Source: an uncultured Ruminococcus sp. (GTDB lineage Bacteria > Bacillota > Clostridia > Lachnospirales > Lachnospiraceae). From it: a DNA stretch of 64,000 bases. Below the pieces are notes generated by a model, which ran no database searches, was not told where the DNA came from, and was given only the letters and a program-made list of their open reading frames with translations. This document shows, one piece after another, positions 1-8,427 of this stretch (positions are counted from its first letter, which is position 1; each line of letters starts with the position of its first letter). The position numbers were made by a program, and so were the translations under genes. The stretch is from assembly GCA_900544395.1 (NCBI GenBank), contig UQVC01000008.1, positions 423 to 64,422 of the forward strand. The letters are read 5' to 3'.

Positions 1-2
1 AG

Positions 3-1220
3 AAAGGCGAGCGCGTCAACGGCGAAGCTCCTTACGGCTACCTTATCGACCCGGATAACCGCAATCATCTGATACCCGACCCGGAAACGGCGCACGTCGT
101 AAAACAGATTTTTGCAATGTATGTACGGGGCGACCGTATGTGTGAAATCCAGAACTGGCTGCGGGACAATGAAATACTGACCGTCGGGGAACTGCGCTAC
201 CGCAGGACAGGGAGCAAACGCCACCCCCGCCCACAGCTCAACGCATGGTACAACTGGCCGGATAAGACGCTGTACGACATTCTGACAAGGAAAGAATATT
301 TAGGGCATACCATAACCGGGAAAACCTACAAGGTATCTTATAAGTCGAAAAAGACGAAAAAGAACCCGGAGGAAAAAAGGTATTTCTTCCCCAACACTCA
401 CGAACCTTTGATTGATGAAGAAACCTTTGAACTTGCACAGAAGCGGATTGCCACCCGGCAACGCCCGACAAAGGTTGATGAAATTGACCTGTTTTCCGGG
501 CTGCTCTTTTGCGGGGACTGCGGCTACAAAATGTATGCAGTACGCGGAGCCGGGACGCTTGAACGGAAACACGCCTACACTTGCGGCAACTACCGCAACC
601 GGGCAAGAAATGATATGCTCTGCACTACGCATTATATCCGCAAAAGCGTATTGAAAGAACTTGTCCTTGCAGACTTGCAGCGAGTAACGTCTTATGTGAA
701 AGAGCATGAACAGGAGTTTATCGAAACAGCCAACGAGTGCAGCGCAAAGGCAGTACAAAAGACGCTGACACAGCAGCGGAAAGAGCTTGACAAGGCGCAG
801 AACCGTATTAACGAGCTGAACATCTTATTCCGCAAGCTCTACGAGGACAACGCTTTAGGGAAACTTTCAGATGAACAATTTGCTTTTCTGACTTCCGGCT
901 ATGATGAAGAAAAAAAGACGCTGACCCGGAGGATTGCGGAGCTGTCACAGGAAATCGACAACGCCACCGAGCGCAGCGCGGACGTAAAAAGGTTTGTCGC
1001 ACTGGTACGCAGATACACAGCGATTGAAGAACTGACCTACGAAAACGTCCATGAATTTATTGACCGTATTCTTATTCACGAACTGGATAAGGAAACGAAC
1101 ACCCGCAAAATCGAAATCTTTTATAGCTTTGTCGGCAGAGTTGATACAGGTGACAAGCCTACCGAAAGTATCTCCTATTTCAGACAGATAGGAGCCGACG
1201 TAAAGAGTTATGCTATCTAA
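3..1220 (+). CDS. Large serine recombinase, 5'-partial (gene starts left of the window)
   Basis: ORF in frame from nt 3. It carries serine-recombinase recombinase-domain, zinc-ribbon (CGDCGYKMY...CGNY) and coiled-coil regions typical of TndX/TnpX/CcrB-type enzymes. GC is about that of the chromosomal genes. Confidence 0.85.
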   Translation, partial: KGERVNGEAPYGYLIDPDNRNHLIPDPETAHVVKQIFAMYVRGDRMCEIQNWLRDNEILTVGELRYRRTGSKRHPRPQLNAWYNWPDKTLYDILTRKEYLGHTITGKTYKVSYKSKKTKKNPEEKRYFFPNTHEPLIDEETFELAQKRIATRQRPTKVDEIDLFSGLLFCGDCGYKMYAVRGAGTLERKHAYTCGNYRNRARNDMLCTTHYIRKSVLKELVLADLQRVTSYVKEHEQEFIETANECSAKAVQKTLTQQRKELDKAQNRINELNILFRKLYEDNALGKLSDEQFAFLTSGYDEEKKTLTRRIAELSQEIDNATERSADVKRFVALVRRYTAIEELTYENVHEFIDRILIHELDKETNTRKIEIFYSFVGRVDTGDKPTESISYFRQIGADVKSYAI

Positions 1221-1224
1221 CATA

Positions 1225-1466
<242 letters not shown>

Positions 1467-1571
1467 TTATCCTCCTTTATAACTAACCCGTGTTTACAAT
1501 ACCTGCTTGCAAGTAAAGTATAACATGGGTTATTTTTCACATTCAATCTATTTCTTACAACTGCACCGAAT

Positions 1572-1814
1572 TTATGCGATTGTCTGCTTTGCTTTCTCAA
1601 GCATAACATCAGTCAGAAGTTCTTCCATTGTCTTCCCCTTTTCGGGAAAATGCTCTTTTACAACAATCTTTGTCTTTCCTCTGTTTCCAATGCCACACTT
1701 GTTATTTTTCTTTTGAATTGTTTTTACAGTATTATCAATAACACATACCCCCTTTCTGTAAAAATCTTTTCTAAGCAATTCAACGGCTTTTGTCATAGCC
1801 CACAGGAGTTCCAC
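1572..1814 (-). CDS. Hypothetical small protein (80 aa)
   Basis: ORF only. No recognisable motif. AT-rich codon usage like the island. Confidence 0.25.
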   Translation of the reverse strand: MELLWAMTKAVELLRKDFYRKGVCVIDNTVKTIQKKNNKCGIGNRGKTKIVVKEHFPEKGKTMEELLTDVMLEKAKQTIA

Positions 1815-2059
1815 CTCTGCATAGTTCTTATGTAGCCGTACCCATTGCGTGCGACGCTCTTAACGCTCAAGCTGTGGCTGTACGGGAGTATCATTATCTG
1901 ACAGCACAGGTCATGGCGATAAAAGAGGACAAGTCTTTTACAAGAACACAAATAGAGTTCGCTCGCTTTTGCAGGGGAAAGGTCATGGCGTATTTGTTTC
2001 AACGGCTAGCTGTCTGTCAAACGTATTGAATTGCTTTATTCAGTTGTCAAAGAACCCGA

Positions 2060-2810
2060 AAGAAGAAAATCATCTTTCCTATATACCGCGTTGGAAAAGA
2101 GGGGAAATGTAACCAAAATTCAAAACTTTTTCCATTATTAGTACAAATGGAACGGTTCATTTTGGCAATCAACGGTTGATTTTCTCCTTTTTCACTACTA
2201 TCTGTACAGCAAACGTCCATTTGTTAAGTTGAAATGGAAAAATTTTAACTTCTTTTCTTGCACCATATAGGGATAGAAATTGTCATTTTGCTAAGTTAAT
2301 GACGAAAAAAGATTATTCTTCTTTTCACACCCTAACTACCCAAACCATACCGTTACTGCCAACAATAGAATGAAATATTTTCTTTGCACCATATAGGGAA
2401 CGGAAACCTTAAATTGTTAAGTTTAGAATAAAGTATTTTCCTCTTTTCACATCAACACTCAACTGCTAATGCCTGTTTGAATACAAATCAAGAAATGACA
2501 TAATAATTTCTTCTTTCTTGCACCAACACTCGACACGAGTAAGATATTTGAATACAAATTTAAGATAGTTTTTCCTCTTTTCATAGAACACTGTCCATTA
2601 ATCACGAATTTCCGTCATTTTTTCAAAACTTTTTTCTTCTTTCACATCATATAGGGACAGCAAGCCCTGATTTAATGACCTATTTTCAAAAAAAGTTTAG
2701 ATTTCCTTTTCTCGCACCATATCTGTACGCAAGTAGCTGTTTTGTTGCAGATTTGATAAAAAAGTTCATTTTTCTTTTCCGTTCCATATAGGGAATAAAA
2801 ATGACTCTTT
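2060..2810. repeat. Array of about 10-11 degenerate direct repeats (minus-strand consensus about TCCCTATATGGTGCAAGAAAAGAAG, with GTACAGATA / GAGTGTTG variants of the 5' half) at about 57-77-bp (mean ~65-bp) periodicity. No ORF of 60 aa or more in 2041-2840.
   Basis: Repeat cores on the plus strand sit near 2196, 2252, 2308, 2375, 2440, 2513, 2575, 2636, 2706 and 2783 (e.g. cttcttttcttgcaccatatagggatagaaa, attttctttgcaccatatagggaacggaaa, cctcttttcacatcaacactcaactgc). The array lies immediately 3' of the Rep_trans gene. Confidence 0.6.
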
Positions 2811-2840
2811 GCTGACTAAATCTGAAATTTTTCAATTACA

Positions 2841-4124
2841 TTAAAAAATACCGTCATTCTCTTGTGGAACAGCGGTATCTATTCGTTCTTCTATGGTCGA
2901 TTTTTCTAATTGTAATAAATGTTTATGCTTGCCTTTGAGTTCTGCCTGTTCAATCATATCTTTCAGTATCGTTGTATGATTTTCTCTGTCTAATGCTTGT
3001 ACCATTTTTATGGTTGGTGCAACCTGTCTTTGTAACCAATGCAATGCTTTTTGTAAAGTATAAGGTTCTGGCTTTGTAGTTAATCGTATCGGTTCTCTGT
3101 TTTCCCCTACAAACCACGCCCAATCATCATTTGTTTTCCATTGACTTTTTGGCTTGTCGTCCTCTCTGTCAACAAAGCGGACATAATGATTGATGATAGA
3201 AAAAGCGGTGCGTTCAGCGTCCCGATAGGTCAGTAAATCTACAACCGCATAATAGGCTCGTTCATTCTTCATGCGTATTTCAAAACGGTTTTTTATTTCC
3301 GTATCTTCAACTTCTATGCCATTTTTGACATACTGCTCATAATTCTTCTGATAAGCACACATATATAATTCACTGCTTGTTGAACCGAGATATAAGGTTT
3401 CTCCTGTATTCTTTGGTAAATCACTACCGCATTTTTCCGTACCGCTGTAATCTTTCTGCATACGAAAGTAGGAGATACATTCGCCAGCCTTATATTTTTC
3501 CTTTAATTTTGGAATATCTAATATTCCTGCTTTATCATTGATTGCCAAGTCAAGACGTTTCATCTTACCACTTGCCGTTAAACAATCAAGCATGAAGTCA
3601 TACCATGAGCGTTCTTGTGCCAATAAATAACTTTCCATTTGACGACAGCCTTTGCCTTTCAATTCCAATAAAACACCTAAATGTTCCTGCATGGAACACA
3701 TGATATTGATGTCGCCAAGTACATATTTGCTTTCATATCCGTATTTTCCATAATCTTCATAAAGCATATAATCGGCTTTCAGTTGTAATACATCACGGAT
3801 AATCGCCAATGCGTCCGTAGTAGGAAATCGGACACGAAAGTAATCAATCAATAAGAATAGTGGCTCTTGCGGATTGAAACGCTCAATCTGTTTTTCTATG
3901 ACTTCTCTTAATTCGTCATTTAATGGCTGTTTCCCTTTTTCAATGCGGTTGTAATATTCACGGCTGATACCACAGGCAACAGCAAGCCTTGTTTGTGTTA
4001 CTCCGTATTCCTCACGCTTTTGTCTTAATTCTTCAATAAAGTTTTTATCATTCATTTTTAAATTCCTCCAATCAAAAAAGGCAACTACCATATTTGATAA
4101 TTGCTTATACTTAAATTTCTGCAA
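2841..4124 (-). CDS. Rep_trans family replication initiator / MOBT-type relaxase with N-terminal XRE HTH domain
   Basis: N-terminal HTH (GVTQTRLAVACGISREYYNRIEKG). Rep_trans signatures RLDLAINDKAG and YLGSTSSELYMCAYQK (Y-x-G-S-x2-S-x6-Y-x-K), as in the pT181 RepC / Tn916 Orf20 / NicK family. Confidence 0.75.
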   Translation of the reverse strand: MQKFKYKQLSNMVVAFFDWRNLKMNDKNFIEELRQKREEYGVTQTRLAVACGISREYYNRIEKGKQPLNDELREVIEKQIERFNPQEPLFLLIDYFRVRFPTTDALAIIRDVLQLKADYMLYEDYGKYGYESKYVLGDINIMCSMQEHLGVLLELKGKGCRQMESYLLAQERSWYDFMLDCLTASGKMKRLDLAINDKAGILDIPKLKEKYKAGECISYFRMQKDYSGTEKCGSDLPKNTGETLYLGSTSSELYMCAYQKNYEQYVKNGIEVEDTEIKNRFEIRMKNERAYYAVVDLLTYRDAERTAFSIINHYVRFVDREDDKPKSQWKTNDDWAWFVGENREPIRLTTKPEPYTLQKALHWLQRQVAPTIKMVQALDRENHTTILKDMIEQAELKGKHKHLLQLEKSTIEERIDTAVPQENDGIF

Positions 4125-4289
4125 AAGAAAAAGACAATCAATTTCTCGTTTGAAATCAACTGTCTTTCCTATGTCTTATTCGATTTTCCCAAGTGATAAT
4201 GGCATAATTTATATCACACCATGTAAAATGCGGTTTCGCCTTGTAAATACAGCATTTTCCGCTTGTTAATGTATATTGTCTCTTGTTTT

Positions 4290-4400
4290 TTGTGCCCCCC
4301 TTGTTAGATAACGGGGGCTTTGAACGGCTCGCAAGCTCGCCGAACCGCCGAAGCGAACCGCCCCCTTGCAAGCATGGCGGAAAAATCTTAAGGATTTTCC
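4290..4400. other. GC-rich inverted/direct repeat cluster upstream of the Rep_trans gene (candidate oriT/nic or dso region)
   Basis: CCCCCC-N12-GGGGGC-N43-GCCCCC, with GCTCGC aa GCTCGCC and GAACC repeats. It is locally GC-rich inside an AT-rich block and lies 170-280 bp upstream of the rep start (4124). Confidence 0.3.
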
Positions 4401-4455
4401 CGCCAACGTGGTCGGATCGCTCCGTCGGTTTAACAGCTTTTCTGTTTCTCTCTAG

Positions 4456-4986
4456 TTATCTACGCATATAAATCAAATCGGTTATTCCGTTATAAGTCTG
4501 TGTTTTACAAAGCCTTAACTTTATTTCCCTGTCTATGTTGCCCAAAAGACGAACCCCATTTCCTAACAGAGTAGGAATAACAGAAATGTAATATTTATCA
4601 ATCATATTTTTGCTTACCAACTGCTGAACAAGATTTGCTCCGCCACAAATCCAAATATCCTTTCCTGCTTCTTGTTTTAGCCGTTCCAATAATAAAACAG
4701 GATTTTCACTTGTAAAATGAATTTGTTGGGAAGAATTGCACTCTTTATGTGTTAATACATAAGTTGTAAATTTATTATATACCCATTCTTGCGGAGAAAG
4801 TTCAGTAACAACCTGATGAGAAGTATTCCACCCCATTAAGACAGTATCTATATCTTTGGTAAATTCTGTATAAGTGTCGATGTTTTCATTGTCATTTCCA
4901 TGACCATTTAGCCAAGCTACTCCACCATTACCGTCCGCAATATATCCGTCAAGGCTCATGGCAATAAATAAAACTACTTTTCTCAT
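4456..4986 (-). CDS. Dihydrofolate reductase family protein (RibD C-terminal domain type)
   Basis: MRKVVLFIAMSLDGYIADGNGGVAWL...IWICGGANLVQQL is the typical RibD_C/DHFR-like pattern. Confidence 0.65.
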   Translation of the reverse strand: MRKVVLFIAMSLDGYIADGNGGVAWLNGHGNDNENIDTYTEFTKDIDTVLMGWNTSHQVVTELSPQEWVYNKFTTYVLTHKECNSSQQIHFTSENPVLLLERLKQEAGKDIWICGGANLVQQLVSKNMIDKYYISVIPTLLGNGVRLLGNIDREIKLRLCKTQTYNGITDLIYMRR

Positions 4987-5016
4987 TTTTTCTCTTTTAT
5001 AAATACAAACAGGAAT

Positions 5017-5112
5017 TTATTTCTCTTTTTTACTCATAAGGGAACAACTGATTGCTACAAATAAACCCATTAAAATCCATGGAAATGCTGCTCTTATAAA
5101 ATCACTAACCAT
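5017..5112 (-). CDS. Candidate small hydrophobic peptide (31 aa, MVSDFIRAAFPWILMGLFVAISCSLMSKKEK)
   Basis: Strong SD (AAGGAGG) 8 nt upstream of the ATG. Single predicted TM. Below the 60-aa ORF-track cutoff. Confidence 0.35.
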   Translation of the reverse strand: MVSDFIRAAFPWILMGLFVAISCSLMSKKEK

Positions 5113-5167
5113 ACTTTATTCCTCCTTAAATTCCAATTTCCTTAGTTCTACAAACTGAAATTTTTGC

Positions 5168-5824
5168 CTATGAATGTATCTTGTTCTTTATACGCAAACA
5201 GGCTTCTGTGTGCATAATCCAATGTCTTGAAAACGGCATTTGAATTAGTCCACAAATATCTTTATTACACCAATAATCAATCAGCCAAATTGCTTTTTCA
5301 TTGTCGTTTACTACATTCAACGATTCTAAGTATCCTTTTCTTTCTTTCGGTATTTTTCTTTTCAATTCATCATAAGATAACCGTTCAAGCATTTTCTCAG
5401 TGCTTTCCCATACTTCGAAAATATATAAATATAATTCTTCCAGATTAAGCTGTTTTGAAAAGTCTGCAATCTGCTGTTTCATGAGTTCATTTCCTGTTGT
5501 AATGATAGGTGAATTGATACGCTCTTGATAATTGCCTGCAAAAAATACTTGTTCATCTTCATTTATCACTGTATGCACAACTATATCTTCAATGCGGAAA
5601 ATATGCCAAATAGAATAAGCAATCGTCTTACTATGATAACCATCAGCGTTTATGAAGGGGATTGAGTTAAAATCTTCTCTGCATAATTCTTCTTTGAAAG
5701 ATACTAAGGTTTGTATTAACTGACTTCGTAAAGTAAGTAAAGTATCAATACCCCTCTTATAAGTATCTTTCTTTTTTATTTGTGCCTGCATTGTTTTATT
5801 AAGTTCAGACCATTCCTTATTCAT
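5168..5824 (-). CDS. DinB/YfiT-like metal-dependent hydrolase family protein (start uncertain; the ORF extends to 5974)
   Basis: His-containing motifs (SIWHIF...HTVINED...FSRHWIMHTE) consistent with the DinB_2 superfamily. Internal ATG at 5824 with a purine-rich upstream region. Confidence 0.5.
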   Translation of the reverse strand: MNKEWSELNKTMQAQIKKKDTYKRGIDTLLTLRSQLIQTLVSFKEELCREDFNSIPFINADGYHSKTIAYSIWHIFRIEDIVVHTVINEDEQVFFAGNYQERINSPIITTGNELMKQQIADFSKQLNLEELYLYIFEVWESTEKMLERLSYDELKRKIPKERKGYLESLNVVNDNEKAIWLIDYWCNKDICGLIQMPFSRHWIMHTEACLRIKNKIHS

Positions 5825-5961
5825 ATTCAATACTCTCTCAAATTCTGATTTTATCGCCCCATACAAATTATTTCGTAAACAATCGGCGTCAGGACAGAGG
5901 AAAAAGCAGACTACATTTAGAATGTATCTGCCCATTCCTCTGGACTGCACACCGATTTTTA

Positions 5962-6027
5962 CCAATTGAACCAAATCGCTGCGCCACAGCCTTGGCAGGC
6001 CATCGCGCAGCGATTTGGTTCAACTGG
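5962..6027. repeat. 23-bp inverted repeat (1 mismatch) with a 20-nt GC-rich loop: ccaattgaaccaaatcgctgcgc ... gcgcagcgatttggttcaactgg
   Basis: Read directly from the sequence. It sits between the dfr gene's 3' end and the DinB-like gene. No T-run follows. Confidence 0.6.
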
Positions 6028-6106
6028 AATTTGTCTTACAACAATTTATATATGCATAAAAAGCAATATATTTATGAAAACACCCTAAATCCAAAATTTA
6101 CTCAAT

Positions 6107-6580
6107 TCATTTTTTCCTTACATAAAATGTTCTCGTATATTTCACTTCCTCACCAAGTGTTTCCCCTATCAAAACTTCAAAATCATTGATATCAAATTCT
6201 GGAAAGAATGTATCTCCATCTTCAATATTTAAATCTACTTCTGTGATATACATTTTATCTACTATTTGCAAAGCTTCCTTAAATAGTCCATATCCACCAG
6301 ATATGTATACATCTCGTCCTTTAGCCAATAATAATGCATCTTCTAATGATTTAACTGAAACTAAATTATCTCCTTGATACTCTGTTGTGGTGGAAACAAC
6401 AATATTCATTCTATTAGGCAACGGATGACCGATTTCTTCATAAGACTTTCGCCCCATAATAACCACATTACCCGTTGTTAACTCTCTAAATTGCTTTTGT
6501 TCTCCCTTTATTTTCCATGGTATATTACCATTCTTGCCTATAACATTATTCTTTGACCTCGCAACAATCAAACCTATCAT
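6107..6580 (-). CDS. dfrF: Trimethoprim-resistant dihydrofolate reductase, DfrF-like (157 aa)
   Basis: Canonical DHFR (MIGLIVA...NVIGKNGNIPWKIKGE...VIMGRKSYEEIG..PLPNR.NIVVS). From memory the sequence looks identical or near-identical to enterococcal/streptococcal DfrF. RBS GGAGG. AT-rich context. Confidence 0.8.
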   Translation of the reverse strand: MIGLIVARSKNNVIGKNGNIPWKIKGEQKQFRELTTGNVVIMGRKSYEEIGHPLPNRMNIVVSTTTEYQGDNLVSVKSLEDALLLAKGRDVYISGGYGLFKEALQIVDKMYITEVDLNIEDGDTFFPEFDINDFEVLIGETLGEEVKYTRTFYVRKK

Positions 6581-6882
6581 CTATTTCATCCTCCATAATA
6601 TGATGTCGTACCTGTGATTCCATCAAGTGCACCACATCTTAACAAACTCAAAATTATCTCGAACTAACCAGCTCGACAAATTCCTTTTTTGTCTTCATCT
6701 GCATTATATCATATTGTTATAAGCATTGCCATTTCTTTTCTGCTTTTGAAAAGTTACTTATCAGCCTATGTTTTGTAAAGGGTGATATTCAGCATTTCTC
6801 ACGCAACAAGCCCTTGACAAACCATAGACTAATAAGTTTTAAGGTAATCAAGCAGAAATGAAATAGTCTGCTGTTTCACGGC

Positions 6883-6921
6883 AACAAAAAAGAGATACCA
6901 ACACACTTATGTAGTATCTCT
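6883..6921 (-). terminator. Rho-independent terminator for the minus-strand HTH gene
   Basis: AGAGATAC-N15-GTATCTCT stem. An A6 run sits on the plus-strand 5' side, giving a U-tract on the minus transcript. Confidence 0.55.
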
Positions 6922-6982
6922 TAGTCTAGTAGCAATATTCTTTTGTTTGCAAGCAGGTAAACATGGGCTGTTTCTTAATATC

Positions 6983-7138
6983 TTTTTGTTTGGGAAACAC
7001 CCCTCTCCCATTTTGAAACGGCTTTATCGGAAAGAAACAATCGTTCTGCCAGTTCTTTTTGTGTGTAGCCTTTTTCCTTTCGCAGCATTGCCACAAATGC
7101 TCCAAACTTTTGATTGTCGATTTCATACATGTTCCCCA
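6983..7138 (-). CDS. XRE-family HTH protein, 51 aa, probably a truncated regulator (MYEIDNQKFGAFVAMLRKEKGYTQKELAERLFLSDKAVSKWERGVSQTKRY)
   Basis: Canonical Cro/C1 HTH. The frame differs from the junk 95-aa ORF listed in the track. It ends right after the HTH. Confidence 0.55.
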
Positions 7139-7251
7139 TCTCCTTGTTGTTTTTATGATTTTAGTGTAAAAGATTTTCCTTCTTTTGACAATCGACTGCC
7201 GGTAGAATGGCATTTTTTTTGCTTATTATTCGCTTATTTTCCGAAAAATAC

Positions 7252-7280
7252 TGTACAGAATCTATGTGGTGTGCTATACT
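7252..7280 (+). promoter_or_regulatory. Sigma-A-type promoter: TGTACA-N17-TGcTATACT (extended -10)
   Basis: Located about 35 nt upstream of the riboswitch-like element and 130 nt upstream of the nucleoside hydrolase start codon. Confidence 0.45.
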
Positions 7281-7314
7281 CTACCTCGCATTTAGCAAAT
7301 CAGAGCACGGTTCT

Positions 7315-7353
7315 CTGGACTGGTTCGTGAACTTCCCAGTATAAAAAACCAAG
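7315..7353 (+). ncRNA. Putative preQ1-I riboswitch aptamer (CUGG...CCCAG hairpin + UAUAAAAAACCAAG tail)
   Basis: Architecture matches class I preQ1 aptamers: a short stem-loop followed by an A-rich tail able to pseudoknot with the loop, ending CAAG. It sits in the 5' leader of a queuosine-salvage-type operon. Confidence 0.5.
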
Positions 7354-7407
7354 TATCTCAGACATGCAGTTTAGACTGCAGAATCAAAAAGTAAAGGAGA
7401 TTGGAGA

Positions 7408-8427
7408 ATGAATGCAACAAAAGTCATCATTGACTGTGATCCTGGGATCGATGACGCTCTCGCCCTGATGCTGGCGCTGCGCTCACCGGAACTTGAGATT
7501 TTAGGGATTACAGTTGTCTCTGGGAACGTCCCGGCAAAACAAGGTGCAGAAAACGCAAAAAAAATCCTGCACTGGATGGATCGGATGGACATTCCCGTAT
7601 ATCTTGGAGAAGAACTGCCGCTTGTCATTCCTTATGTAGATGCAATGGACACCCATGGAACAGACGGTCTTGGCGAATCTCATTATCCAAAAATCACAGA
7701 TGGAATCATACACAAAAACGGCGTGGAATTTATTGCCCGCACGCTGCAAAAGGCTGCCCTGGAGAATGAAGCCGTCTCGGTCATCGCACTGGGACCTCTG
7801 ACCAACCTTGCCAGAGTCATACAGATGTATCCTGACAGTCTGAAAGGACTTGGGGAACTGATCAGTATGGGCGGAAGCTATCGAAGCCATGGAAACTGTT
7901 CTCCGGTAGCGGAATACAATTACTGGTGTGATCCTCACGCTGCCGAAATCATTTTTCGGGCATTTGAAGAACTGCCTGTTTTGCAGGACAAGCAAATTCA
8001 TATGGTGGGACTTGATGTGACCAGAAAAATCGTACTGACGCCAAATCTTCTCGAATACATGTGCGTTACAGATCCGACGATGGGAGAACGGATCCGGCGG
8101 ATTACCCGGTTCTATTTTGATTTTCACTGGAAACAGGAAGGAGTCATTGGCTGTGTGATCAACGATCCCCTTGCTGTGGCTTATTTTATCGACCGCTCTT
8201 TATGCAGCGGAATCAATGCCTGTACCAGGATCGCCACCGAAGGTCTTTGCATCGGGCAAAGTGTCGTAGATGGATTTGATATCTGGAACGGCAAAAAAAA
8301 TACTCATGTATTGACAGAAGTAGATGGAATGCGGTTTATGCAGATGTTTCTGGAGCGTCTCTTTCAAATTCCACCAAAGAAAAGTCTTCCGGTGCTGGAG
8401 CAGATCTTAAGTGGAGGTGTCCGATGA
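7408..8427 (+). CDS. IU-type nucleoside hydrolase, likely queuosine hydrolase (QueK-like)
   Basis: DCDPGIDDALAL N-terminal IU-NH signature. Operon with an ECF S component and a radical-SAM-like gene, as described for queuosine salvage in Clostridioides. Confidence 0.7.
   Translation: MNATKVIIDCDPGIDDALALMLALRSPELEILGITVVSGNVPAKQGAENAKKILHWMDRMDIPVYLGEELPLVIPYVDAMDTHGTDGLGESHYPKITDGIIHKNGVEFIARTLQKAALENEAVSVIALGPLTNLARVIQMYPDSLKGLGELISMGGSYRSHGNCSPVAEYNYWCDPHAAEIIFRAFEELPVLQDKQIHMVGLDVTRKIVLTPNLLEYMCVTDPTMGERIRRITRFYFDFHWKQEGVIGCVINDPLAVAYFIDRSLCSGINACTRIATEGLCIGQSVVDGFDIWNGKKNTHVLTEVDGMRFMQMFLERLFQIPPKKSLPVLEQILSGGVR

What the first reader, a model, noticed from the sequence alone, without database searches (positions are those of the whole stretch)
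4290..4400. Locally GC-rich inverted/direct-repeat cluster upstream of the Rep_trans gene: candidate oriT/nic or double-strand origin
Inside a block with ~33% GC there is a ~110-bp stretch with CCCCCC-N12-GGGGGC-N43-GCCCCC dyads, a GCTCGC aa GCTCGCC direct repeat and reiterated GAACC.

Rep_trans/MOBT relaxases (Tn916 Orf20, ICEBs1 NicK, pT181 RepC) nick inside GC-rich hairpin loops placed just upstream of or within their own gene. This is the most plausible position for such a site for this protein.
Basis: partly seen in the sequence, partly recalled or inferred. Interest (0 to 1): 0.55.

Follow-up and report, generated by a model that had tools for sequence, protein, structure and literature searches.

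The report
Transfer origin of a mobilizable element
The GC-rich patch is very probably the origin of transfer of a small trimethoprim-resistance island, where the neighbouring relaxase nicks one DNA strand; this is a well-known kind of site, newly located in this element.

Summary
The evidence is computational only.

- **Nick hairpin:** On the minus strand, 4318-4294 reads GCCCCC-GTTATCTAACAA-GGGGGGC. This is almost the Tn916 oriT core (CCCCCCGTATCTAACAGGGGGG), with the MOBT nick motif CT'AA in the loop. The predicted nick lies between 4306 and 4305.
- **Relaxase gene:** The hairpin sits 239 nt upstream of a gene (2841-4055, minus strand) with HTH, Rol_Rep_N and Rep_trans domains. Its product is 54% identical to Tn916 Orf20.
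- **Conservation:** The hairpin is present in 55 of 64 related loci from gut Firmicutes and is sequence-invariant in nearly all, although both flanks diverge and reassort across it. Four related loci lose homology within 2 nt of the nick.
- **5' domain:** The rest of the GC-rich stretch (4343-4430) is a roughly 90-nt hairpin on the nicked strand. Fifteen of its 20 stem pairs show compensatory changes. G·T wobbles outnumber A·C mismatches 53 to 5, so it folds on one strand only. Its role is unknown.
- **Binding site:** A GTGATA-N13-TATCAC repeat (4193-4217) lies 76 nt 3' of the hairpin. It co-varies with the relaxase's HTH helix, like IR2 of ICESt3.

Verdict: a new member of a known kind, of modest interest.

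The parts
2841..4055 (-). MOBT (MobT/Orf20-like) relaxase gene, 404 aa: N-terminal HTH, Rol_Rep_N and Rep_trans domains
   Evidence: Pfam Rep_trans 4.7e-74 (profile 1-201 of 201), Rol_Rep_N 6.9e-31, HTH_3 1.6e-09. 54% identity to Tn916 MobT over 395 aa.
4081..4104 (-). Hairpin followed by CTTTTTTGATTGGAGG, directly before the relaxase ribosome-binding site. It looks like a terminator or attenuator. In relatives, cargo genes are inserted at this point.
   Evidence: Terminator-like call. The same hairpin-plus-CTTTTTGATTGGAGG arrangement precedes Tn916 orf20. Homology to cargo-bearing relatives breaks here.
4130..4167 (-). 16-bp hairpin (AAAGACAGTTGATTTC / GAAATTGATTGTCTTT) followed by a T-rich run. 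All three non-Watson-Crick positions are G·T on the minus strand. Candidate insulating terminator, or a second protein-binding repeat.
   Evidence: Inverted repeat I2. Folds as 16 continuous pairs on the minus strand. Conserved in relatives, with arm changes.
4193..4217 (.). IR2-like candidate binding site for the relaxase HTH domain: GTGATA-N13-TATCAC, 76 nt 3' of the nick hairpin
   Evidence: Position matches ICESt3 IR2, which lies 68 bp downstream of IR1 (PMC9371924). The half-site co-varies with the HTH recognition helix across loci. It stays next to the nick hairpin when cargo separates oriT from the relaxase gene.
4294..4318 (-). IR1, the nick hairpin: GCCCCC / GTTATCT'AACAA / GGGGGGC. 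The predicted nick is between T4306 and A4305 on the minus strand.
   Evidence: Sequence. Near-identity to the Tn916 oriT core (PMC11658703). CT'AA nick motif (PMC9371924). Unique in the window. Present in 55 of 64 related loci.
4327..4340 (-). Direct repeat GCGAGC-TT-GCGAGC between the long hairpin and IR1. Conserved, with variable spacing. Function unknown.
   Evidence: Nearly invariant columns in alignment A1. Also present in C. difficile pJMR5-W and C. perfringens pSXP-169. Absent from Tn916.
4343..4430 (-). 5' domain: long imperfect hairpin (outer stem about 20 bp) enclosing the inner hairpin 4375-4405. It folds specifically on the nicked strand.
   Evidence: DNA fold z = -6.35 on the minus strand against -3.47 on the plus strand. 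15 of 20 stem pairs show double changes; 90% of cells pair against 43-49% in slid controls; 0 of 500 shuffles reach the observed values. RNAalifold finds the same stem independently. 53 G·T against 5 A·C cells.

Best explanation
**What it is.** Window 4193-4430 is the origin of transfer of an integrative mobilizable element (about 1283-7011). By analogy with Tn916 and ICEBs1, it is probably also the element's rolling-circle double-strand origin. The element carries dfrF and encodes its own MOBT relaxase.

**Proposed mechanism. Every step is inferred from ICESt3, ICEBs1 and Tn916; none was shown here.**
1. [quoted passage not shown]
2. The 76-bp spacer loops, so that the extruded IR1 hairpin (4294-4318) reaches the Rep_trans active site.
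3. The catalytic tyrosine cuts CT'AA between T4306 and A4305 on the minus strand and stays attached to the 5' A.
4. A host helicase unwinds the DNA. The minus strand leaves 5' to 3' through the secretion system of a co-resident Tn916/ICESt3-type conjugative element.
5. The relaxase gene therefore enters the recipient first. The cargo genes, the long 5' hairpin and the 5' half of IR1 enter last.
6. Strand transfer at the regenerated IR1 recircularises the DNA.

Beyond IR1 this is the 5' domain of the oriT: a roughly 90-nt hairpin (4343-4430) plus a GCGAGC direct repeat. Selection maintains it as a fold of the nicked strand. It most likely acts on single-stranded DNA, either in termination and recircularisation or in priming the complementary strand. 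Which of these applies is open.
For: **Relaxase identity.** HTH_3, Rol_Rep_N and full-length Rep_trans domains. 54% identical to Tn916 Orf20/MobT, including the HTH region.

**Nick hairpin.**
- The minus strand reads CCCCCGTTATCTAACAAGGGGGG, against Tn916 CCCCCCGTATCTAACAGGGGGG, in the same position and on the same strand relative to the relaxase gene.
- That Tn916 sequence is exactly what the ΔoriT allele removes (PMC11658703).
- CT'AA in the loop of a GC-rich hairpin is the mapped MOBT nick (PMC9371924).
- The hairpin is unique in the 64 kb window, where 0.17 are expected.

**Conservation.**
- 55 of 64 loci encoding relatives (71-100% protein identity) carry the hairpin once, upstream of the gene on the same strand. 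It lies at -213 to -266, or at -920 to -1552 where cargo is inserted.
- Its pairs never vary, while the flanks do.

**Binding site.** An inverted repeat 76 nt downstream tracks the HTH recognition helix:
- SRE[Y/H]YNRIEK goes with GTGATA...TATCAC in 40 loci.
- SRTYFNQIEN goes with GTGTTAA...TTAACAC in 5 of 5 loci.
- TREYYNRIEN goes with GTGACAT...ATGTCAC in 2 of 2 loci.
- ICESt3 IR2 lies 68 bp downstream of IR1 and has a TGTCAC consensus (PMC9371924).

**IR1 as a breakage or exchange point.**
- Flank identities are discordant across it: L004 vs L050 are 100% identical 5' and 64% identical 3'; window vs L059 are 54% and 94%.
- In L002, L023, L052 and L062, homology starts at CTAA or AA, within 2 nt of the nick.

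**5' domain.**
- 15 of 20 outer-stem pairs have compensatory changes; 0 of 500 shuffles reach the observed values; 90% of cells pair against 43-49% when partners are slid.
- RNAalifold predicts the same stem independently.
- G·T wobbles outnumber A·C mismatches 53 to 5, so the fold is on the nicked strand. Fold z is -6.35 on the minus strand and -3.47 on the plus strand.
- The same architecture, with an unrelated stem sequence, occurs in a C. difficile plasmid element that uses a tyrosine integrase. Analogous hairpins precede the Tn916 nick.
Against: - No experiment supports any step. Nicking, binding and mobilisation are all inferred.
- This copy may no longer be mobile. Its serine recombinase gene is cut to a 63-aa N-terminal fragment (1269-1460) by the end of another element.
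- No conjugation genes occur in the rest of the window, so no helper element was identified.
- The hairpin differs slightly from characterised ones. It has a 6-bp stem with 13 nt between the arms, against 10 nt in Tn916 and a 7-bp stem with 12 nt in ICESt3.
- The binding-site assignment has one exception (L044). Two other inverted repeats (4130-4167 and 4081-4104) are alternative candidates, and the one in Tn916 lies directly before the ribosome-binding site.
- Covariation counts are per sequence, not per evolutionary event, and the loci are related.
- The strand-specific fold would suit an RNA of the same sense equally well.
Confidence: 0.85

Rival explanations
1. The GC-rich 5' domain (4343-4430) is a plasmid-style single-strand origin (sso) placed just upstream of the nick. 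It would fold on the displaced or transferred strand and recruit RNA polymerase to prime complementary-strand synthesis. This rivals only the role assigned to the 5' domain. It is compatible with IR1 being the nick site.
For: - The fold is strand-specific and lies on the nicked strand, with strong covariation.
- It sits immediately 5' of the nick, which is where most rolling-circle plasmids place their sso (PMC4595007).
- sso function depends on structure more than on sequence (PMC4595007). That fits unrelated stem sequences sharing one architecture.
- Conservation among relatives begins exactly at the 5' arm of the stem.
Against: - In ICEBs1 and Tn916 the mapped sso lies downstream of the relaxase gene, not upstream of oriT (PMC4595007, PMC9154091). 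Tn916 nevertheless has analogous hairpins 5' of its nick, which suggests they belong to oriT itself.
- No -35/-10-like hexamers were found in or near the stem (and inspection).
- No ssoA CS-6 (TAGCGT/A) motif is present in the window copy. This motif is recalled from memory.
- No BLAST similarity to plasmid sso regions was found. All plasmid hits are MOBT oriT-like.
Confidence: 0.25
2. The structures act in RNA. They would form a terminator, insulator or processing signal at the end of the co-directional cargo operon, protecting the relaxase gene from read-through, or they would be a cis-regulatory leader. The resemblance to an oriT would then be secondary.
For: - In about 35 different contexts the nearest upstream gene is co-directional and ends 0-100 nt before the long hairpin.
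- G·T on this strand would be G·U in a sense transcript.
- Tn916 uses terminators to keep its replication genes silent (PMC11658703).
- Hairpins followed by T-runs do exist further downstream, at 4130-4167 and 4081-4104.
Against: - No T-run follows either the long hairpin or IR1. IR1 is followed by CACAAAAAAC.
- No terminator was called in 4290-4440.
- No Rfam family matches the region even at E ≤ 1.
- There is no conserved promoter, because conservation begins at the stem itself.
- The IR1 sequence is the experimentally defined Tn916 oriT core (PMC11658703).
- An RNA role would not explain homology breakpoints at CT'AA.
Confidence: 0.08
3. It is only a replication origin. On this view the region is the double-strand origin of an integrated pT181-type rolling-circle plasmid, and the protein is a plasmid Rep with no role in conjugation.
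For: - Rep_trans and Rol_Rep_N domains are present.
- The nick motif is identical to the dso of Rep_trans plasmids (PMC9371924).
- MOBT oriTs also serve as replication origins (PMC11658703).
Against: - The protein carries the N-terminal HTH typical of MOBT relaxases and is 54% identical to Tn916 Orf20 over its full length.
- The site lies outside the gene, and its binding-site candidate is about 76 nt away. In pT181 the site lies within repC and IR-III directly adjoins the nick (PMC9371924).
- The element is integrated, with a serine recombinase module and cargo genes.
- It occurs at 93-100% relaxase protein identity across many genera, which indicates recent horizontal spread.
Confidence: 0.05
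4. It is a chance GC-rich patch, a coding sequence, or an attachment site of the recombinase.
For: Two mechanical ORFs overlap the region: 4156-4371 on the minus strand and 4283-4471 on the plus strand.
Against: - The ORFs have no credible family match.
- Relatives differ by non-triplet indels and by paired compensatory changes.
- The region is internal to the element and travels with the relaxase gene in 55 loci with different surroundings. It is not at an element end.
Confidence: 0.02

Closest known systems
Tn916 oriT (between orf21 and orf20)
   Same: - The nick hairpin is almost identical: CCCCCCGTATCTAACAGGGGGG in Tn916 against CCCCCGTTATCTAACAAGGGGGG here.
- It has the same strand and position upstream of a homologous relaxase that carries an HTH domain (54% identity).
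- Structured hairpins lie 5' of the nick on the nicked strand.
- A hairpin followed by CTTTTTGATTGGAGG sits before the relaxase start.
   Different: - There are two extra loop bases and one fewer C here.
- Tn916 lacks the GCGAGC direct repeat, and its 5' hairpins partly lie inside orf21.
- In Tn916 the oriT follows a coupling-protein gene within a full conjugation module. Here it follows cargo genes in a small element with no transfer genes.
- About 120 extra nt separate the nick from the gene here.
ICESt3 oriT (IR1 nick site plus IR2 RelSt3-binding site; PMC9371924)
   Same: - Two-part layout: a GC-rich hairpin with CT'AA in the loop, plus an inverted repeat tens of bp downstream that fits the HTH domain.
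- The spacer is 76 nt here and 68 bp in ICESt3.
- Relatives of the window element even carry the TGTCAC motif (GTGACAT...ATGTCAC in L047 and L048).
   Different: - IR2 here has 6-7-nt arms separated by 11-13 nt, not 13-bp arms separated by 9 bp.
- The half-site in the window is GTGATA, not TGTCAC.
- Binding was not tested.
- I could not compare the ICESt3 5' flank, because its sequence was not retrievable with these tools.
ICEBs1 oriT / NicK
   Same: CT'AA nick in the loop of a GC-rich hairpin. The oriT also acts as a rolling-circle origin (PMC9371924, PMC4595007).
   Different: The ICEBs1 hairpin is reported at the start of nicK. This point is from my own recollection, since the original paper was not held. 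Its sso lies downstream of nicK.
pT181-family double-strand origin (IR-II nick, IR-III binding site)
   Same: Same enzyme fold (Rep_trans) and same nick motif in a hairpin loop (PMC9371924).
   Different: In pT181 the origin lies inside repC, the binding repeat directly adjoins the nick, and the Rep protein has no HTH domain. Here the site is outside the gene, the binding repeat is distant, and an HTH is present.
Rolling-circle plasmid single-strand origins (ssoA, ssoT, ssoU)
   Same: The long hairpin is strand-specific, conserved in structure rather than sequence, and placed just upstream of the nick (PMC4595007).
   Different: No sequence similarity or signature motifs were found. Characterised sso elements of MOBT conjugative elements lie elsewhere (PMC4595007, PMC9154091).
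IME_oriT elements that integrate into MOBT nick loops (PMC7563843)
   Same: They recognise the same short stem-loop. This could explain loci where homology stops at CTAA.
   Different: The window element is not integrated in an oriT. Its relaxase is a close relative of MobT, with an HTH domain. [quoted passage not shown]

Membership tests
MOBT-type oriT (Tn916/ICESt3/ICEBs1 superfamily) | GC-rich inverted repeat with the conserved CT'AA nick motif in its loop | tested here: met
   Minus strand 4318-4294 reads GCCCCC GTTATCTAACAA GGGGGGC. It folds as a 6-bp G/C stem and matches the Tn916 core (PMC11658703, PMC9371924).
MOBT-type oriT (Tn916/ICESt3/ICEBs1 superfamily) | Adjacent gene for a MOBT relaxase (Rep_trans domain, usually with an N-terminal HTH), on the same strand as the nick motif | tested here: met
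   HTH_3, Rol_Rep_N and Rep_trans domains. 54% identity to Tn916 MobT. The gene starts 239 nt 3' of the hairpin on the minus strand.
MOBT-type oriT (Tn916/ICESt3/ICEBs1 superfamily) | Separate inverted-repeat binding site for the HTH domain, tens of bp downstream of the nick | tested here: inconclusive
   GTGATA-N13-TATCAC lies 76 nt downstream and co-varies with the HTH helix. There is one exception (L044), two other candidate repeats exist, and no binding data are available.
MOBT-type oriT (Tn916/ICESt3/ICEBs1 superfamily) | Site-specific nicking by the relaxase, and mobilisation of DNA carrying the site | not testable with these tools
   Indirect evidence only: the hairpin is conserved, the flanks reassort across it, and homology breaks at CTAA or AA in four loci.
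pT181-family double-strand origin | Nick hairpin located within the rep gene, with the specificity repeat (IR-III) immediately adjacent | tested here: not met
   The hairpin is 239 nt upstream of the start codon. No second C5-N-G5 hairpin exists in the window. The nearest candidate binding repeat is 76 nt away.
ssoA-type single-strand origin | Long strand-specific hairpin upstream of the nick, with RSB and CS-6 (TAGCGT/A) motifs. The motifs are recalled from memory. | tested here: inconclusive
   The strand-specific hairpin and its position are met. CS-6 is absent from the window copy; TAGCGA occurs in some relatives, but outside the hairpin. RSB was not tested. There are no BLAST hits to plasmid sso regions.
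Intrinsic transcription terminator | G/C-rich hairpin immediately followed by a T-run on the transcribed strand | tested here: not met
   No T-run follows IR1 or the long hairpin on either strand. Terminator-like hairpins exist only further downstream, at 4130-4167 and 4081-4104.
Integrative mobilizable element (IME) | Own relaxase and oriT plus a recombinase, with no mating-pore genes | tested here: inconclusive
   Relaxase and oriT are present. The serine recombinase is reduced to an N-terminal fragment here but is intact in the E. faecium plasmid copy. No transfer genes lie in 1283-7011 or in the rest of the window. The left side lies beyond the window.

The most novel reading that the evidence does not exclude
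The roughly 90-nt hairpin domain (plus the GCGAGC repeat) immediately 5' of the nick may be a dedicated single-stranded-DNA signal common to MOBT origins, Tn916 included. It is maintained by compensatory changes and folds only on the nicked strand. It could be a plasmid-style sso placed upstream of the nick, or an element needed for termination and recircularisation of the transferred strand. As far as I could find, this has not been described or dissected. A related possibility is a readable HTH-helix to half-site specificity code, which would let MOBT elements sharing an identical nick hairpin keep their relaxases from cross-acting.
Probability: 0.35. Interest if true: 0.55.

Novelty: new member of a known kind. 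Interest (0 to 1): 0.33.

Why it matters
- **Locating the site.** It pins down, to the nucleotide, the likely nick site and relaxase docking site of a small dfrF (trimethoprim-resistance) element. This relaxase/oriT module occurs at 93-100% relaxase protein identity in dozens of human-gut Firmicute genera, and the dfrF element itself also sits on an Enterococcus faecium plasmid. Current annotation labels the relaxase an 'XRE family transcriptional regulator', and MOB-suite types that plasmid as non-mobilizable.
- **Tracking resistance.** Recognising these origins would improve predictions of which resistance islands can move.
- **Testable hypotheses for MOBT biology.** The comparative data give two: a strand-specific structured 5' domain, and co-variation between the HTH helix and the binding site.
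- **Caveat.** The site is the expected companion of a MobT gene, so specialists will not find it surprising.

Tried and rejected
- **Rfam scan of 1-8000 at E ≤ 1.** Nothing matched in 4290-4440. This argues against a known RNA family.
- **Promoter and terminator scan of 3900-4700.** It found no sigma-70-like promoter and no terminator in the flagged stretch.
- **Overlapping ORFs 4156-4371 (minus) and 4283-4471 (plus).** They have no credible family match. Coding was rejected.
- **Tandem Repeats Finder on 2000-3000.** It returned nothing. The array downstream of the relaxase gene is too degenerate and was only seen with the repeat finder.
- **BLAST of the oriT stretch against plasmids.** It found only other MOBT-type oriT modules and no plasmid sso.
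- **Searching for the missing 5' half of IR1 in L002, L023, L052 and L062.** Nothing was found within the available flanks. I therefore could not decide between relaxase-mediated joining and insertion of a large element into the nick loop for L002, L052 and L062. L023 is an internal 70-nt deletion.
- **Full-text search for the exact hairpin sequence.** The window variant appears in no paper.
- **Original papers.** The ICEBs1 oriT paper and the Tn916 replication paper are not held.
- **Source genome.** I first took Holdemanella biformis DSM 3989 (L049) to be the source. Only 1490-3729 matches at 99.9%, while the oriT region matches at 93.7%. The window comes from a different, mosaic copy.
- **Regex count of array repeats in relatives.** The pattern was too strict to be informative.
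Full report
**1. The observation**

- CCCCCC at 4295-4300, then 12 nt, then GGGGGC at 4313-4318.
- GCTCGC-AA-GCTCGCC at 4327-4341.
- CGAACCGCC twice, at 4341 and 4354.
- A further GCCCCC at 4360, which is 41 nt on rather than the 43 nt stated.

GC reaches 0.50-0.55 over 4250-4449, in a background of 0.26-0.37. The pattern C5-N8-16-G5 occurs only here in 64 kb, where 0.17 matches are expected. As single-stranded DNA, 4270-4440 folds with z = -5.2 on the minus strand and z = -2.7 on the plus strand. Two corrections apply: the second GCCCCC is not a partner of the first dyad, and the structured region extends to 4430.

**2. Context**

The gene at 2841-4055 (minus strand) encodes a 404-aa protein with HTH_3, Rol_Rep_N and a complete Rep_trans domain. 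It is 54% identical to Tn916 Orf20/MobT over 395 residues.

On the minus strand, three genes lie upstream of the flagged region: a RibD_C-family reductase, an unknown ORF and a DHFR.

The same element occurs at 94-99.7% identity on E. faecium plasmid p5_70kb.
- There the DHFR is typed as dfrF, and an intact serine recombinase follows the relaxase module.
- The relaxase is annotated there as an 'XRE family transcriptional regulator'.

In the window the recombinase is reduced to a 63-aa resolvase N-terminal fragment at 1269-1460. It abuts the 3' end of a different, GC-richer serine recombinase gene at 1-1220. Homology to the plasmid copy ends at about 7011. A PreQ1 riboswitch and housekeeping genes follow. 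The setting is therefore a small integrative mobilizable element, about 1283-7011, without transfer genes. Its integration module is interrupted in this copy.

**3. The nick hairpin**

Read on the minus strand, 4318-4294 is GCCCCC-GTTATCTAACAA-GGGGGGC.
- Upstream of Tn916 orf20, on the same strand, the sequence is CCCCCC-GTATCTAACA-GGGGGG.
- That 22-mer is exactly what the Tn916 ΔoriT allele removes, and its removal abolishes the replication-dependent fitness defect (PMC11658703).
- The nick of MOBT relaxases is CT'AA in the loop of a conserved G/C-rich hairpin. It was mapped in ICEBs1 and is used by RelSt3 (PMC9371924).

In the window this places the predicted nick between T4306 and A4305 on the minus strand.

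**4. Comparative evidence for the hairpin**

A search with the protein returned 64 loci from gut Lachnospiraceae, Erysipelotrichaceae and others, at 71-100% identity.

Fifty-five of them carry the hairpin once, on the gene's strand. It lies at -213 to -266, or at -920 to -1552 where cargo genes sit between it and the gene. The nine without it divide as follows.
- Four have almost no upstream sequence.
- Two are gene fragments.
- Three (L023, L052, L062) lose homology precisely at the nick...GATTTT|CTAACAAGG...TGTAC|AACAAGG and ...GTGAC|CTAACAAGG.

A remnant on C. perfringens plasmid pSXP-169 does the same (...gcatta|CTAACAAGGGTGG), joined to the 3' end of a surface-protein gene.

The two flanks of the hairpin also assort independently.
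- L004 and L050 are 100% identical in the 5' flank and 64% identical in the 3' flank.
- The window and L059 are 54% identical in the 5' flank and 94% identical in the 3' flank.

These patterns fit breakage and rejoining at the nick. Two other explanations are possible. One is homologous exchange within the invariant 23 bp. The other, for three of the four junctions, is insertion of an element that targets the nick loop, as IME_oriTs do (PMC7563843). The missing 5' halves were not found within the available flanks. L023 is an internal 70-nt deletion, so insertion cannot explain it.

**5. The binding site**

In ICESt3 the relaxase does not bind the nick hairpin. It binds IR2, an inverted repeat 68 bp downstream, through its HTH domain, and efficient nicking needs this (PMC9371924).

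In the window, GTGATA-N13-TATCAC (4193-4217) lies 76 nt 3' of the hairpin. Across loci this repeat changes together with the HTH recognition helix.
- SRE[Y/H]YNRIEK goes with GTGATA...TATCAC in 40 loci.
- SRTYFNQIEN goes with GTGTTAA...TTAACAC in 5 of 5 loci.
- TREYYNRIEN goes with GTGACAT...ATGTCAC in 2 of 2 loci. This version contains the TGTCAC consensus reported for ICESt3 relatives.
- L044 is an exception, and L042 is a hybrid.

When cargo is inserted, this repeat stays with the hairpin and not with the gene. I take it as the most likely docking site, at about 60% confidence.

Two further hairpins lie between it and the gene.
- 4130-4167 is followed by a T-rich run, and all three of its mismatches are G·T on the minus strand.
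- 4081-4104 is followed by CTTTTTTGATTGGAGG. That arrangement is shared with Tn916.

These may insulate or attenuate relaxase expression. They remain alternative binding sites.

**6. The rest of the GC-rich stretch**

On the minus strand, 4430-4343 forms a long imperfect hairpin that encloses a 13-bp inner hairpin (4405-4375). The direct repeat GCGAGC-TT-GCGAGC (4340-4327) follows, and then the nick hairpin.

Forty distinct versions from the related loci fold into the same layout. Each has an outer stem of about 20 bp with one or two inner hairpins, and the inner sequences fall into at least three unrelated types.

On a MAFFT alignment of 29 distinct sequences, the outer stem shows the following.
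- 15 of 20 outer-stem pairs have changes on both sides.
- 90% of cells pair, against 43-49% when partners are slid.
- No shuffle out of 500 reaches the observed values.

RNAalifold predicts the same stem without guidance.

G·T and T·G cells number 53, against 5 A·C and C·A. The inner hairpin's single mismatch is also G·T on this strand. The fold is therefore selected on the nicked, gene-sense strand.

A C. difficile plasmid element with a tyrosine integrase has the same layout with a completely different stem sequence. Tn916 has two hairpins in the equivalent place, with z = -8.8. Conservation among relatives begins exactly at the 5' arm of the stem. Upstream of it lie diverse, co-directional cargo genes.

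**7. What the 5' domain does**

This is not settled. Three readings were considered.
- **Single-stranded DNA signal.** This is the simplest reading. In transfer the minus strand leaves 5' to 3' from A4305, so this domain enters the recipient last, next to the site where the relaxase must rejoin the ends.
- **sso.** The domain sits where rolling-circle plasmids usually place their sso. Against this, the mapped sso elements of ICEBs1 and Tn916 lie downstream of the relaxase gene (PMC4595007, PMC9154091). No promoter-like or ssoA-like motifs were seen.
- **RNA.** An RNA role is not excluded, but it lacks a T-run, a conserved promoter and an Rfam match.

**8. Comparison with known systems, and verdict**

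The site meets the sequence-level criteria of a MOBT oriT: a hairpin with CT'AA, and an adjacent HTH-bearing MobT gene on the same strand. It has a plausible IR2. It does not fit a pT181-type origin, where the site lies inside the gene and the binding repeat adjoins the nick. Nicking and mobilisation could not be tested.

It is a new member of a known kind. Interest is modest. The two points worth following up are the strand-specific 5' domain and the co-variation between the HTH helix and the half-site.

Noticed in passing
window 2220-2840: The non-coding 620 bp downstream of the relaxase gene holds about nine degenerate repeats of 60-70 bp. Read on the minus strand, each ends in a core such as TCCCTATATGGTGCAAGAAAAGAA or GTTGATGTGAAAAGAGGAAAA. 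The E. faecium plasmid copy lacks 59 bp (2488-2546), about one unit. Similar arrays follow the gene in L047 (76% protein identity) and L055, but not in L050. Function unknown. In ICEBs1 and Tn916 this position, downstream of the relaxase gene, holds the sso.
   Followed up: partly
window 1800-1897 (- strand): Rfam pemK RNA motif (55.1 bits, gathering score 34.8). It lies between small unannotated ORFs of the element and upstream of the 80-aa ORF 1572-1814.
   Followed up: no
window 1-1460: The element's serine recombinase is cut to a 63-aa resolvase N-terminal fragment (1269-1460, minus strand). It abuts the 3' end of a different, roughly 50% GC large serine recombinase gene (to 1220, plus strand; Recombinase, Zn_ribbon_recom and DUF4368 domains). 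Another element appears to have inserted into, or recombined with, the recombinase gene.
   Followed up: partly
window 5868-6021: A stretch of about 154 bp is absent from the otherwise 98-99.7% identical E. faecium plasmid copy. It contains a long near-perfect inverted repeat (ccaattgaaccaaatcgctgcgc ... gcgcagcgatttggttcaactgg) and looks like a small inserted palindromic element.
   Followed up: no
window 4081-4146; L001 7337-8320: This is a cargo slot between the oriT and the relaxase gene. In the E. faecium plasmid and many loci, 0.7-1.3 kb is inserted here (GyrI-like and DUF3781 genes in the plasmid copy), flanked by a duplication of window 4097-4142. The plasmid copy also has two IS1251 copies at about window 4146-4149.
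   Followed up: partly
L023, L052, L062 (upstream of the relaxase gene); L002 6735-6760: Four independent loci keep the 3' half of the nick hairpin, but their homology starts at CTAA or AA, within 2 nt of the predicted nick. L023 is a 70-nt deletion running from the inner hairpin to the nick. These look like natural footprints of cutting and joining at the nick. For three of them, insertion of another element into the nick loop is an alternative.
   Followed up: partly
L044 (upstream of the relaxase gene): L044 is the one locus that breaks the pairing between HTH helix and half-site. It combines an SREYYNRIEK helix with a GTGTTAAC...TTAACAC repeat. It is probably a recent recombinant and a natural test of cross-recognition.
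   Followed up: no
window 7314-7358 (+ strand): PreQ1 riboswitch (48.9 bits) upstream of an inosine-uridine nucleoside hydrolase gene (7408-8427). It marks the start of the chromosomal flank just beyond the element's right end.
   Followed up: no
window 1490-4426 vs L049 and L055: Holdemanella biformis DSM 3989 carries two copies of related elements. One matches window 1490-3729 at 99.9%, but the oriT region at only 93.7%, so the breakpoint lies inside the relaxase gene. The family is highly mosaic, and the window's host is not that strain.
   Followed up: partly
L001 (E. faecium p5_70kb, NZ_CP065930.1): This clinical-source plasmid carries the same dfrF element with an intact oriT, yet MOB-suite (as given by PLSDB) types it as non-mobilizable and its relaxase is annotated as an XRE regulator. 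Elements of this family are probably under-called in mobility predictions.
   Followed up: no
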